64,000 nucleotides of DNA, taken from assembly GCA_009914755.4 (NCBI GenBank), contig CP068257.2, forward strand, positions 19,648,001 through 19,712,000. Direction: 5' to 3'. The position numbers and the translations under genes are program-made. Source of the stretch: the human T2T-CHM13v2.0 reference genome, Homo sapiens. Each line of letters starts with the position of its first letter. Within the stretch, counting starts at the first letter, position 1. Under the pieces are notes generated by a model that saw nothing but the letters and a program-made list of their open reading frames with translations, made no database searches and was not told the DNA's origin. This document shows positions 56,567-60,879 of this stretch, in pieces.

Positions 56567-59113
56567 GTAACCACATCTCAATATGTAATGGTTTCCATTA
56601 CCATGCAATTTCAGTATTTTCAATATCATTAAATCACAAATTAGTCTCCAATTTACCTAGTAACTTGTAGGATCAAATAAATGGTTTGATTTTTAAAAAG
56701 GTAACTAACACAATGTCGGCTTTACCACTTTCGTGGGAGGGGAAATGTCAATATGAAATATTTAAAGATGTTCTTTATTAAGTCACAAACGTTTAGGCTA
56801 TTGGTATTACTAGCATTGCTTAACTAGACTTTTGTTATACGTTGAATCTATAAAGTATGTTATTGCAGTTTTAACCCCTGCTGTGTGAGTATCTGGCCTT
56901 TGCAAATTCACTGACCATGAGAAAAGTGCTAGGACAAATAATATTGCCATTTTAAAAACAGGAATAAAGATTTACAAACCAGTACATTTAACTTTAAACC
57001 TCAGCAATTTCAGTTTCTTAAAGAAATGATTGTATATTTAGAAAACACTGTGGTGAGTGATGAGCGTTGGGATTGGCGAAGAAGATTTACTTCAAATTAA
57101 TTTAATGTATTTTCTACTTAGACAGGTGTCAACAAACTACAGTCCATAGGGCAAATTTGGCTTCCAGCCTGTTTTGGTAAATAAAGCTTTATTGAAACTA
57201 AAGCAAAAGAGTAATTTAAATTCAAAAAAGTCTGACTGTCATTCAATGCTTTACCCTTTAGAAATTGTCTTTCTGCAGTAGAAGTGTAGGTTCTGCTTTC
57301 ATATAATTTAGAATCTAATGTAGAGAAATAGGTACAAACAAATTACTGCATTGTGATGACCTTTAACCAGAATGCATTCAACTTACTTAGAAATTAATGA
57401 AACATTACTATATGTTTCACTATACTAATGGATTTTAATTACTATTATATTTCACAACTTTTCATATGAACTTCAAATACAAACAAAAGAGAAAGGAAAA
57501 GATGGTGAAATATTGAAATGATAGAACTGGCAATTTCACATAAGTGAAGATTATAACATTAGGCTATTACATTGCTTTTCTCTACTCAGTGTTAAAGAGA
57601 AACCTCCTTTAAACTTTTTTCATTATTAACTTTATTTAGGTAAAGAGTCCAATTTCTAAAGTATTCATACACCTCAATATAACTTTGATTTATTAACATT
57701 GATAGTAAAAAAGAGAAGAATAAATGTTTGTCCATAGTACACTTTACATCAATCAGTCCATCCCATCATGTTATATTTAACAACATGCTAAACCCATAAA
57801 TTCACCAAAAAAGTAACTTCTCTGGTCAATTTATTACTTTCCTTTTGAAAGACTGTGTTATCATATATGTTACCCTTTTTTGTTTCATTTTCTCCTCATA
57901 ATGGCATTTTAAGAGATTATTTGATAATTGTACTATTTTGATATACTTATTTTATATATTCAAGTTGAAAATCAAATTTATAAAATGTGAATGACAGTCA
58001 TAATCTTCTGCAACCCAGATAAAAGTTATAGTTTGCTTTAGTATATTCTTAACAAAAAATAATGTATGTTACTATGACACAGTTGCCAAATCTGAAAAGA
58101 ATTAAATTTATGTGAAATTAAAAAAATACAATCGTATCTGAAACCATAGAGGATTGTTTTTGTTTCAATTTTGCATGTTTATTTAGATTAGATCACTCAA
58201 AAGTATTTACTTTCATGCCCTTAGACTTTATCATACCTTCATATTTCTAATGCTGTTTTCTAATTATTTTTCAGCTTACTGCAAAATTCTTAAAAGTTAT
58301 CTTCTCAAAGATAGTTTTTACTCTGCATTTAATGAATGTTACCTTATATATTATGCAGAGAATGAAAGATAAATTATACTCAGTTATTTCATTAATAAAT
58401 GTCATCAAGTAACAAGAAAGCTGTTATATTTTATTCTTGGATCTATGCCTCAGGCCACCCCAAACTACACACAGATACTTATTCTGTAGTAACTGTGAAA
58501 AATAATCTTAAAGCTTTTGTTTCCTAAGGAGTATATTAAAAAACACATCTTGTTTTAAGAAAATCTGACTTGGTTTCTTTGCAATAAACAATTATAGGAA
58601 CTCAAATATGCTTTTCTGCACAAGTTTAATCCAGTCAATAAAGAAATTAAGTCTATTGTATTTCTATTATATTTCTCCAAATATATTTTAAGATCCTTGA
58701 CTTATTTTTCTATACTCCAGTACACTTCTTTTCCCCTAATATTTCTAGTTTCCTGAATAGCATAATTCACAAATCAAATGGTTGAGCTGAACTTTGAAGT
58801 AAAGTTTATCTAGTTTTGAATCTCAGCTCTGCCATTTATGATGCCTCAGCATGATAAAATTGAGTTCAAAGAGTCCAAATAACATTACCAGTGTTATTTG
58901 AACTCTTTTTAATATGAGTTTTTAATATGAATTTTTTCATCTTTAAAATGTTGATATTTACCCTCTTGTTATAAGGAAGATGAGCACATTACAAATGCAT
59001 ATCAATGTTTATCATATTATAAATATCCAATAAACTTTACTGTTTACCTTGCCATATTACAAATTTACAGTACAAATTTACACATTTTACTTTGTCATAT
59101 TACAAATTTACAG

Positions 59114-59184
59114 TATGGCCTCACATAATACAGCTTAGAAATGAAATTACATATGAGAATGGTCAAGTCACGCTTGAAGCATAG
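59114..59184 (+). other. Degenerate partial duplicate of the first ~60 nt of NCAM2 exon 7 with its acceptor; a pseudo-exon.
   Basis: 59114-59175 TATGGCCTCACATAATACAGCTTAGAAATGAAATTACATATGAGAATGGTCAAGTCACGCTT aligns to exon 7 at 56421-56482 with 6 mismatches (~56/62 identical), then diverges. It is preceded by ...acaaatttacag. An in-frame TAG sits at 59182-59184. Confidence 0.6.
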
Positions 59185-60879
59185 TTTATCTTGTTGCCTC
59201 TGTAAAGTATAACTAAGGTTTGATTGAACTTTAATGAGATCATATTATTCCTATCATGGAAAGTAGCATGGGATTGTACTTTCCATAAGAATCGCGTGGG
59301 AAGACTATGAAAATGCAGATTCTAGATTCCCACTTCTTGAAGTTGATTTAGTATATGCAGCCCAGGGCATAGGAATGCATATTAAATAAACTCATCAGTT
59401 GGTGTCATATTGTTAGTCTTCAAGCCATATTTTGGGAAACAACTTCAAGTAAGGATGAAAATTAACAGCTAATATTTCCAACAGAAAAATGATCTTAACC
59501 AATTAGTTGACACCTGATGGGGGCTTGGGAACTATAAAACAAAACTAAACTAAAATTTCCATTATGCATGTATCAGTCAAGTTTTGATGAAACTAAAATA
59601 TATAGATCAAAAATAGTGAAATATCATAAATGTCGTGTAGTAAAAACTAATAATTTCATCTAACAACATGGCAATGTATTTAGCAAATATGTTCATCATT
59701 TTAGATTTTTCAGAGAGGAGGGTCTCAATTAACAATATTCTTTTTTTTTTTTTTTGTCTAAGTTCTCAATCACCAGATAAGACAAAAAAAATGGGGATAA
59801 AATACCATGTGACTTAAATGTATAGATGAGTGAATGCTCTTATACTGAGCTCAATAATTAGATAAACATACTCAACACAGTCCCAAGTAGCATGAGACTT
59901 ACAGCCCTCCCCTGTGTGAGAAGACATGCTAAGATAACCTTGACTGAGGGGGACAATGGTGAACCCATGTTCTCTTTGGGGTGGTCCTTTCTGAAAAGAA
60001 AAAAAGGAGTGGTTAGGAAGTGTATTTAATTTTTTGTGCCCCCATAGTTACCTATCAGATATCTCTTCACTTCCCATGGGAGAAAAAGTAAGGGACTTGA
60101 AAAGTCCAACTGTGGTATGTTGGAAGACCTTCCTCCCCATGGAATAAATGATTAAGAGTTCACGAGTAGCATTCACTGCCCAACTAACAATATGCTAATA
60201 ACATTTAAATCACCATATACATAACTATCTCAGTTTATCGTCTGGTATTATTACTGCATAGTAAATGACCCCATAATATAATGGCACAAACCAATAATTT
60301 TCTCTCACTTTTGATTTTGTGGATCAGAAGTTTGAGTAAGGCTTGGCCAGATGGATATCACTTGGAATCTCTAATGTGCTTGTATCAGATGTTGCTACTA
60401 ATGTTGCTTGTAGTTGTAGTTATGAGGAGGTTCAACTTTGCTGAGAAGCCAACATGGCTCACTTAAGTGGCTGGAATTCAGTCTTGACTGTGGGCTGCAA
60501 GCTCAGGTGGAGCTGTTTTTGGAACATCTATATGAAGCCTCTCCAGTATGGCTATCTAAGAGCAGCCTGCTGTCTTTTGTGGCGGCAGGCTTTCTCCACA
60601 GAGAACATTTCAGAAGAATCAGGCCAGACAGACACTATCTGGTCTACTCTGACATAGTCTTGGAAGTCACACATTTCTCACTTCTGCCACAGTATATTGG
60701 TTACAAACAAATTATAAGGTCGCCCAAATCCAACATGAGAGGAATTAGGCACTCTGTCTTGATGGGGAAGGATTCACAATCATATTGTAGATAAGTATGT
60801 GGGGTGGGAGATATTGTTAAGGCCATCTTTGGAAATGCATCTACAATTTATCTCAAAATATTCCCATGACTTAAGTCCA

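What the first reader, a model, noticed from the sequence alone, without database searches (positions are those of the whole stretch)
59041..59210. Partial duplicate of NCAM2 exon 7 (acceptor plus first ~60 nt), about 2.7 kb downstream of the real exon, with a premature stop
59114-59175 is about 90% identical to the 5' end of exon 7 (56421-56482). Like the real exon, it is immediately preceded by ...tttacag. The acceptor context has itself been tandemly duplicated (ttgccatattacaaatttacagta / ttgtcatattacaaatttacagta at 59050-59115). Similarity decays after about 62 nt, and a TAG follows at 59182-59184. A possible GT donor (ctctg|gtaaag) lies near 59200. If this were spliced in after exon 7, it would introduce a premature termination codon in either reading phase. 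It is therefore either an inert relic of a small intrachromosomal duplication or a candidate poison/cryptic exon in a neuronal adhesion gene. I cannot tell from sequence alone whether it is ever used.
Basis: seen in the sequence. Interest (0 to 1): 0.6.

Follow-up and report, generated by a model that had tools for sequence, protein, structure and literature searches.

The report
Decaying NCAM2 exon-fragment copy in intron
A 64-base piece of an NCAM2 exon and its splice acceptor was copied into the next intron in a primate ancestor and has drifted neutrally since, so it looks like an ordinary mutational scar rather than a working poison exon.

Summary
Window 59107-59174 matches 56414-56481 at 63/68. 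That source is the last 7 intron bases plus the first 61 bases of the NCAM2 exon that begins Ig domain 4. It is the only exon-derived copy in the window (E 3e-19).

Orthologous contigs show what happened. Two unrelated non-primate mammals have an uninterrupted empty site (…CATATTACATAATTTTT[G/A]AAGCATA…). A monkey-like primate, 6.2% diverged in the intron, carries the copy and both local repeats.

So this is a 64-nt templated insertion (59110-59173). It has 3 nt of microhomology (TTT) on the left and at most 1 nt (T) on the right. It has no target-site duplication and no poly(A) tail. Repeats of period 13 and 43 arose with it or after it.

The copy differs between the two primates at 7/64 positions (10.9%), against 6.2% in the intron, so nothing suggests constraint. 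Its GT exists only in the window's lineage, and the TAG is lost in the monkey. Acceptor and donor score like average AG and GT dinucleotides.

Inclusion after the real exon would stop at TAA 59126-59128. No RNA data could be consulted. Verdict: an inert relic and an ordinary member of a known kind.

The parts
56421..56566 (+). The real NCAM2 exon: first half of Ig domain 4, residues 300-348, 146 nt. It enters in phase 1 and ends on a full codon.
   Evidence: The translation VQPH...EGDK is 49/49 identical to PDB NCAM2 chains 2XY1, 2XYC and 2JLL. tblastn gives 100%. The boundaries are ...tttacag|TACAG and GATAAG|gtaacc.
56414..56481 (+). Source template of the copy: the last 7 nt of the upstream intron (TTTACAG) plus the first 61 nt of the exon.
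   Evidence: Reference copy of repeat family D1; blastn alignment.
59107..59174 (+). Whole stretch similar to the source: 63/68 identical.
   Evidence: E 2.9e-19 against the whole window.
59110..59173 (+). Minimal inserted segment of 64 nt: ACAG plus 60 exon nt. TTT at 59107-59109 and T at 59174 are shared by the source and the empty target site, so they count as junction microhomology.
   Evidence: The empty sites in L002 and L005 read CATATTACATAATTTTT[G/A]AAGCATA. The window reads CATATTACAAATTT[insert]TTGAAGCATA.
59043..59115 (+). Local direct repeats upstream of the copy. Two 30-nt units (59043-59072 and 59086-59115, 28/30, period 43) each end in the insert-derived ACAGTA. The 13 nt between them (59073-59085, CAAATTTACACAT) largely repeat the preceding CAAATTTACA.
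   Evidence: Family D2 and TRF. The outgroups have a single unit. L001 has both units.
59058..59082 (+). Perfect 13-nt-period repeat TACAAATTTACAG / TACAAATTTACA. It includes the insert-derived ACAG, so it formed with or after the insertion.
   Evidence: TRF: period 13, 1.9 copies, 100% matches. It is also present in L001.
59126..59128 (+). TAA: the stop codon that would be read if the copy were spliced after the real exon (phase 0, Y G L T stop).
   Evidence: It is also present in L001 (YGLI stop).
59182..59184 (+). TAG: the stop in the exon-like phase. It lies in old intron sequence outside the insert and reads TGG in L001.
   Evidence: The outgroups read GCATAA or GCATAG at this place.
59202..59203 (+). 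It is a CA-to-TG change specific to the window's lineage.
   Evidence: L001 reads CCATAAAG, L002 CCATAAAG and L005 CCATAATG. The PWM places it at the 62nd percentile of GT sites. Its U1 duplex is -2.7 kcal/mol.

Best explanation
A short templated insertion happened in a primate ancestor. While the intron downstream of the Ig4 first-half exon of NCAM2 was being replicated or repaired at ...ACA(T)AATTT^TTGAAG..., a 3' end annealed through the TTT microhomology to the acceptor region 2.7 kb upstream on the same strand. It copied ACAG plus 60 exon bases and then returned to the original site. The local repeats of period 13 and 43 contain insert-derived bases, so they arose in the same complex event or soon after it.

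Since then the copy has decayed like neutral intron DNA. It keeps an AG and would bring in a stop codon if it were ever spliced. It has no competent donor, its acceptor is only average, and it shows no conservation. It is most likely an inert relic.

What is shown: the copy, the empty ancestral site, the junction sequences, the sharing with a second primate, and the lack of constraint. What is inferred: the enzymatic route (replicative template switching as opposed to patch repair of a double-strand break) and the absence of function.
For: Copy: 63/68 identity and unique in the window.

Empty site: two outgroup mammals that are only about 74% identical to each other align colinearly across the site. 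Both lack the copy, and the flanks abut exactly.

Age: L001 is 6.2% diverged from the window in intron substitutions. It has the insert and both local repeats, so all of these predate that split. The window copy differs from the source at 5 of 68 positions; one of these changes is clearly shared with L001, and a second site (window 59137) is changed in both copies but to different bases (read). The flanking intron is only 62-63% identical to the outgroups across the site, gaps counted. The copy is therefore much younger than the placental radiation.

Junctions: TTT on the left and T on the right are shared with the target. There is no poly(A) tail and no flanking duplication of 5 nt or more.

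No constraint: the copy shows 7/64 differences between the window and L001, against 213/3418 in the intron (Fisher p = 0.12, in the direction of faster change).

Splice signals: the acceptor is at the 60th percentile of AG sites and the proposed donor at the 62nd percentile of GT sites. Real sites rank at the 77th-99.9th and 81st-99.9th percentiles. U1 duplex energies agree. The donor GT and the TAG are not shared between the two primates.

Precedent: germline templated insertions of 25 bp or more, with microhomology and several template switches, are documented in human genomes (PMC8421209).
Against: No RNA-seq junction data could be consulted, so low-level or tissue-specific use is not excluded.

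The splice scores come from a simple weight matrix whose frequencies I recalled from memory, and from an unconstrained U1 duplex calculation. They are not MaxEntScan or SpliceAI scores.

The real exon's own acceptor is also weak (77th percentile), so a weak score alone does not rule out use.

Only one other primate and two outgroup lineages could be obtained, and their species are unknown. The dating is therefore coarse.

A 64-nt sample has little power to detect weak constraint.

One nucleotide of microhomology on the right is no more than chance would give.
Confidence: 0.85

Rival explanations
1. It is a regulated poison exon. The copied acceptor and exonic enhancers are recognised, a downstream GT (59202 or 59218) serves as donor, and inclusion after the real exon brings in TAA 59126-59128. 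NCAM2 mRNA then goes to nonsense-mediated decay as a way of tuning expression.
For: The AG and the first 60 exon nt are copied nearly intact. Phase 0 reads Y G L T stop in both primates. AAG|gtttga at 59217 ranks at the 86th percentile of GT sites, and the same bases (CTAAGGTTTGATT) are present in L001.
Against: That GT is absent from L001 and from both outgroups. The copy diverges at 10.9% against 6.2% for the intron, so it shows no conservation. The held library has no paper that links NCAM2 with a poison exon or a cryptic exon, and none surfaced for a pseudoexon.
Confidence: 0.04
2. The insertion is the same, but it was made by patch repair of a double-strand break rather than by replicative template switching. 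A short DNA or reverse-transcribed pre-mRNA fragment of NCAM2 was captured at the break by end joining. This would be a class 2 templated sequence insertion, or polymerase-theta-type synthesis.
For: There is no target-site duplication and no poly(A) tail, and microhomology at the junctions is minimal. These are the features listed for class 2 TSIPs (PMC5110952). The fragment crosses an intron-exon boundary, as an unspliced transcript would.
Against: The source is only 2.7 kb away, on the same strand and in the same orientation. The event comes with local slippage-type repeats. Both points fit local template switching better. From my own knowledge, NCAM2 is a neuronal gene, so germline pre-mRNA would be scarce. 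The inserts recovered in the break-repair experiments described in that review were 73-414 bp, median 191 bp, which is longer than this one.
Confidence: 0.2
3. It is the remnant of an old, larger tandem duplication of the exon with its flanks, as in the origin of mutually exclusive exons. Only the most conserved 68 nt would still be recognisable.
For: The copy is downstream, in the same orientation and in the same gene.
Against: Two outgroup mammals have an uninterrupted empty site. Similarity stops abruptly at both ends, where the sequence continues as the orthologous intron. The copy is only about 7% diverged from the source, while the neighbouring intron is only 62-63% identical to the outgroups across the site, gaps counted. 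The other 85 nt of the exon and its donor are absent.
Confidence: 0.01
4. The similarity is due to chance in AT-rich sequence.
For: The region is AT-rich, and TTTACA-like motifs recur locally.
Against: E = 2.9e-19 against the whole 64-kb window. The same insert is present in a second species.
Confidence: 0

Closest known systems
Germline microhomology-mediated templated insertions (MMB-TI, MMBIR-like template switching; Osia et al. 2021, PMC8421209)
   Same: A short inserted stretch is copied from a nearby template in direct orientation. There is microhomology at the switch point. Further local templated repeats suggest several switches, as in that paper's 'complex' class. The insertion is fixed as a harmless germline or evolutionary variant in non-coding DNA.
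   Different: The right junction has at most 1 nt of microhomology. I did not check whether a template 2.7 kb away falls within the distance range those authors used. The mechanism is inferred from junction anatomy only.
Class 2 templated sequence insertion polymorphisms (Onozawa and Aplan, PMC5110952)
   Same: A patch copied from elsewhere in the genome, with no target-site duplication and no poly(A) tail, and with junctions like those of end joining.
   Different: Those patches are described as derived from distant regions and from RNA. The inserts recovered experimentally were 73-414 bp. This one is 64 nt, comes from 2.7 kb away in the same gene, and is fixed in at least two primate lineages rather than polymorphic, as far as can be seen here.
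Pseudoexons and poison exons in long neuronal introns
   Same: An intronic segment with an AG, exon-like sequence and an in-frame stop if it were included.
   Different: It has no competent donor, only an average acceptor, no conservation and no expression evidence. The held library reports nothing of this kind for NCAM2.
VASE mini-exon of NCAM1, an alternative 30-nt exon in the homologous intron within Ig4 (from my own knowledge)
   Same: It lies in the intron that splits Ig domain 4 in an NCAM-family gene.
   Different: VASE is a conserved, in-frame, regulated coding exon. This segment is a recent copy of the upstream exon's start, and it is not in frame, not conserved and not homologous to VASE.

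Membership tests
Templated insertion by microhomology-mediated template switching (MMB-TI) | The inserted sequence matches a template elsewhere in the same genome. | tested here: met
   63/68 identity to 56414-56481, E 2.9e-19.
Templated insertion by microhomology-mediated template switching (MMB-TI) | An allele or ortholog without the insertion exists, with the flanks abutting (an empty site). | tested here: met
   L002 and L005 read CATATTACATAATTTTT[G/A]AAGCATA across the site.
Templated insertion by microhomology-mediated template switching (MMB-TI) | Microhomology at the switch junctions. | tested here: inconclusive
   The left junction has TTT (3 nt). The right junction has T (1 nt), which is no more than chance would give.
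Templated insertion by microhomology-mediated template switching (MMB-TI) | Origin in replication or break-induced replication. | not testable with these tools
   This can only be inferred from the nearby source in the same orientation and from the accompanying local repeats.
LINE-1-mediated insertion (class 1 TSIP or retrocopy) | A target-site duplication of at least 5 bp flanking the insert. | tested here: not met
   The flanks are ...ACAAATTT and TTGAAGCAT. Only T residues are shared.
LINE-1-mediated insertion (class 1 TSIP or retrocopy) | A poly(A) tract at the 3' end of the insert. | tested here: not met
   The insert ends ...GTCACGC and runs straight into TTGAAG.
Class 2 TSIP (patch repair of a double-strand break) | No target-site duplication, no poly(A) tail, and end-joining-type junctions. 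| tested here: met
   criteria taken from PMC5110952.
Class 2 TSIP (patch repair of a double-strand break) | A patch derived from RNA of a distant region. | not testable with these tools
   The source is 2.7 kb away in the same gene. Whether the template was RNA or DNA cannot be told from the sequence.
Poison (NMD-coupled) cassette exon | A premature stop codon in the frame set by the upstream exon. | tested here: met
   Phase 0 reads Y G L T TAA at 59126-59128.
Poison (NMD-coupled) cassette exon | Competent 3' and 5' splice sites. | tested here: inconclusive
The acceptor is at the 60th percentile of AG sites. U1 duplex energies are weak. The scoring is approximate and is not MaxEnt or SpliceAI.
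Poison (NMD-coupled) cassette exon | Evolutionary conservation above the intron background. | tested here: not met
   10.9% divergence in the copy against 6.2% in the intron. The donor GT is absent from L001 and from the outgroups.
Poison (NMD-coupled) cassette exon | Spliced junction reads, with inclusion that rises when NMD is blocked. | not testable with these tools
   No transcript data were available. The protein collection returned only unspliced exon ORFs.
Tandem exon duplication (origin of mutually exclusive exons) | A full-length exon copy with both splice sites. | tested here: not met
   Only 61 of the 146 exon nt are copied, and the donor is not.

The most novel reading that the evidence does not exclude
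The insertion may have supplied a ready-made acceptor and exonic enhancers, and the window's lineage later gained a GT at 59202-59203 through a CA-to-TG change. Together these could have created a young, lineage-specific cryptic exon. Alternatively, with the ATTAAA/AATAAA at 59381-59390, they could have created an alternative terminal exon. Either would truncate NCAM2 after Ig3 or act as a splicing decoy in neurons. Nothing here supports this reading. It is not excluded only because no RNA data could be consulted.
Probability: 0.04. Interest if true: 0.45.

Novelty: new member of a known kind. Interest (0 to 1): 0.15.

Why it matters
It matters little for NCAM2 biology. The copy is most likely a neutral scar.

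It is a clean, datable example of a short templated insertion that moved a splice acceptor and exon sequence into an intron, with the empty ancestral site preserved in other mammals. Events like this supply raw material for pseudoexons.

A variant that strengthened a donor just downstream, for example near 59202 or 59218, could in principle activate a stop-containing pseudoexon. People interpreting deep-intronic NCAM2 variants may want to know the copy is there.

Tried and rejected
1. More primate orthologs through intronic ORFs. I joined 905 aa of stop-to-stop translations from 58187-59839 into one query and searched the protein collection. Nothing scored.

2. Two scans of metagenome contigs. 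The first used the copy-specific right junction and found nothing. The second used a pattern shared by the exon and the copy and gave two chance hits, L006 and L007, which have no similarity to the locus.

3. Three further exon-bearing contigs. L009 and L010 stop short of the site. L008 reaches the site's left edge but departs from its close relative L002 just after CCTTGTCAT and ends about 23 nt later, so none of the three is informative about the site. L004 is a distant vertebrate in which only the exon aligns.

4. Searching papers for the SRA run numbers, to name the species of L001, L002, L004 and L005. No paper holds them.

5. An Rfam scan of the whole window, looking for structured RNAs or SINE-related hits. 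It gave no matches.

6. A literature search for an NCAM2 cryptic exon, poison exon or pseudoexon. No paper holds NCAM2 with 'poison exon'; the only paper holding NCAM2 with 'cryptic exon' is unrelated; none of the 12 listed papers of the pseudoexon search mentions NCAM2.

7. MAFFT alignment of the four sequences at the site. It misplaced the outgroups onto the first repeat unit. I used the colinear blastn alignments and direct reading of the sequence instead.

Readings rejected: a larger ancient duplication, a LINE-1-mediated insertion, a recursive splice site (there is no AG|GT at the copied acceptor), and an RNA duplex between the copy and the exon (the repeat is direct, not inverted).
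Full report

Yes. Window 59107-59174 aligns without gaps to 56414-56481 at 63/68 identity. When each of the six exons (with 60 nt of flank) was compared with the whole 64-kb window, this was the only non-self match, with E = 2.9e-19.

The source is the last 7 nt of an intron (TTTACAG) plus the first 61 nt of a 146-nt exon at 56421-56566. 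That exon translates to [49 protein letters not shown]. This peptide is 49/49 identical to PDB chains named neural cell adhesion molecule 2: 2XY1, 2XYC and 2JLL.

A tblastn with the NCAM2 sequence as I remember it validated itself at 100% over the exon bodies. It placed six coding exons in the window: 2084-2290, 4159-4302, 9996-10133, 42271-42388, 53537-53697 and 56421-56566.

- The acceptor context is tandemly repeated: 59043-59072 and 59086-59115 match at 28/30 with period 43. A perfect 13-nt repeat sits inside it at 59058-59082.
- TAG lies at 59182-59184, in the exon-like reading phase.
- One quotation is wrong. The proposed donor reads cctct|gtaaagt (GT at 59202-59203), not ctctg|gtaaag.
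- 'Exon 7' could not be verified without annotation. From my own knowledge, this is exon 7 in the classical NCAM numbering that starts at exon 0.

**2. What is it?**

Searching the protein collection with the exon peptide returned 14 short ORFs called on unspliced genomic contigs of other animals. Their contigs supplied orthologous DNA.

- L001 is colinear with window 55797-59509. Its substitution divergence from the window is 6.2% in the intron. If the window is human, that level suggests an Old World monkey; this is an inference, since the species is unknown. L001 carries the copy (L001:3333-3399) and both local repeats.
- L002 and L005 are non-primate mammals. They are 62-63% identical to the window across the site, gaps counted, and about 74% identical to each other, so they are separate lineages. 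Both align colinearly across the site, and neither has a second copy of the exon.
- At the site itself, L005 reads ...TTTACTTTGTCATATTACATAATTTTTGAAGCATAATTTTATCTTG... and L002 reads ...CCTTGTCATATTACATAATTTTTAAAGCATAGGTTATCCTG....
- The window reads ...TTTACTTTGTCATATTACAAATTT[ACAGTATGG...GTCACGC]TTGAAGCATAGTTTATCTTG...

The feature is therefore an insertion of 64 nt (59110-59173: ACAG plus 60 exon nt) into a run of five T. TTT on the left and one T on the right are shared between source and target. There is no poly(A) tail and no flanking duplication.

The outgroups have a single TTTAC..ACA(T)AATTT unit, whereas the primates have two. Both primate units end in the insert-derived ACAGTA, and the 13-nt repeat contains the insert-derived ACAG. 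The local repeats therefore formed with or after the insertion, and before the window and L001 lineages split.

**3. Age and selection**

I used the exon as the reference for the original state of the copy (sequences read).

- One change is clearly shared by both primate copies: A to G at window 59117.
- A second position, window 59137, differs from the exon in both copies but with different bases (G in the window, C in L001).
- L001 reads TACGG where the exon has TACAG and the window copy has TATGG. L001 thus preserves the CpG intermediate of the window's CA-to-TG change.
- Three or four changes are specific to the window's lineage, and four or five to L001's.

The insertion therefore predates the split, but apparently not by much. 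With counts of one or two, the interval is wide. It is far younger than the split from L002 and L005, because the copy is only about 7% diverged from its source.

Between the window and L001 the copy differs at 7/64 positions (10.9%), against 213/3418 (6.2%) in the surrounding intron. Fisher's p is 0.12, and the trend is towards faster change, not slower. Of all 64-nt windows, 12.8% have at least 7 mismatches. There is no sign of purifying selection.

**4. Could it act as a poison exon?**

The real exon ends on a full codon, so a following exon is read in phase 0. The copy then reads TAT GGC CTC ACA TAA, which is a stop at 59126-59128. L001 also has this stop (YGLI stop).

The signals needed for inclusion are poor.

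- I used a simple weight matrix, with frequencies recalled from memory and therefore approximate. I ranked each site against every AG or GT in the window.
- The pseudo-acceptor ranks at the 60th percentile, and the upstream duplicate acceptor at the 68th. The five real acceptors I scored rank from the 77th to the 99.95th percentile. The real exon's own acceptor is the weakest of them.
Real donors rank from the 81st to the 99.9th. The best nearby GT, AAG|gtttga at 59217, ranks at the 86th.
L001 and L002 read CCATAAAG, and L005 reads CCATAATG.
- The TAG is pre-existing intron sequence (TAA or TAG in the outgroups). It reads TGG in L001.

No transcript data were available. The protein collection held only unspliced ORFs for this exon. 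The held paper library has no paper linking NCAM2 with a poison exon or a cryptic exon, and none surfaced for a pseudoexon.

**5. Mechanism**

The anatomy is a short copy from a source 2.7 kb upstream, on the same strand and in the same orientation. It has 3 nt of microhomology at the entry junction and no hallmarks of LINE-1. Nested local repeats reuse the new junction.

This fits microhomology-mediated template switching during replication or break-induced replication. Such events are documented as germline templated insertions in human genomes, including 'complex' cases with several switches (PMC8421209).

Patch repair of a double-strand break, as in class 2 templated sequence insertions (PMC5110952), gives the same end product and cannot be excluded from sequence. 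I rate it less likely because the source is so close and the event comes with slippage-type repeats. The enzymatic route is inference. The insertion itself is shown.

**6. Comparison with known kinds, and novelty**

This is a new instance of a known mutational class. It is not a member of the functional poison-exon class: conservation was tested and not met, the splice sites are weak, and expression could not be tested.

It is also not a tandem exon duplication, since only 61 of the 146 exon nt are copied and the donor is missing. It is unrelated to the VASE mini-exon that NCAM1 carries in the homologous intron (my own knowledge).

**7. Verdict**

Interest is low. The residual value is a tidy example of how a templated insertion can plant an acceptor and exon sequence in an intron, and a note for anyone interpreting deep-intronic NCAM2 variants just downstream of 59175.

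Noticed in passing
window 2084-2290, 4159-4302, 9996-10133, 42271-42388, 53537-53697, 56421-56566: The window holds six consecutive NCAM2 coding exons, covering residues about 44-348 (Ig1 second half to Ig4 first half). All are on the + strand. The exon after 56566 (SLDGRIEV...) is not in the window, so that intron is longer than 7.4 kb.
   Followed up: partly
window 56414-56425: The real exon's acceptor is the weakest of the five scored (77th percentile of AG sites), with an A/T-rich tract instead of a pyrimidine tract. A second AG lies 5 nt inside the exon (tttacag|TACAG). Using it would shift the reading frame. Both primate copies have lost that second AG (TATGG and TACGG).
   Followed up: no
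window 56421-56566 vs L001 628-773: The real exon differs from the other primate at 7 of 146 nt (4.8%), with two amino-acid changes (Y to F, V to T). This is not clearly lower than the intron's 6.2% (Fisher p = 0.6), which is unexpectedly little conservation for a coding exon. The sample is small.
   Followed up: no
window 59202-59203 and 59116-59117: Two CA-to-TG double changes occurred in the window's lineage within 90 nt. For the one in the copy, L001 preserves the CpG intermediate (TACGG). For the one at the proposed donor, L001 and both outgroups keep CA.
   Followed up: partly
window 58906-58936: A 13-nt tandem repeat, TTTTTAATATGAA x 2.4 at 94% matches, lies about 170 nt upstream of the copy.
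   Followed up: no
window about 61390-61440: A CA/TG dinucleotide microsatellite, seen as HTHTHT and VCVCVC runs in ORF translations.
   Followed up: no
window 60438-60794: An unusually long intronic ORF of 118 aa on the + strand, overlapped by 61-aa and 67-aa ORFs. It may belong to an old repeat element. It was not examined.
   Followed up: no
L008 2640-2672: This contig is 89% identical to L002. It departs from L002 immediately after CCTTGTCAT, right at the insertion site, and ends about 23 nt later. This could be a lineage-specific insertion or an assembly break at the same T-rich spot.
   Followed up: partly
L001 3270-3431: In the other primate the TAG has become TGG. The exon-like frame through the copy therefore stays open for 53 codons from a TTG. 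No gene was called there in the protein collection.
   Followed up: no
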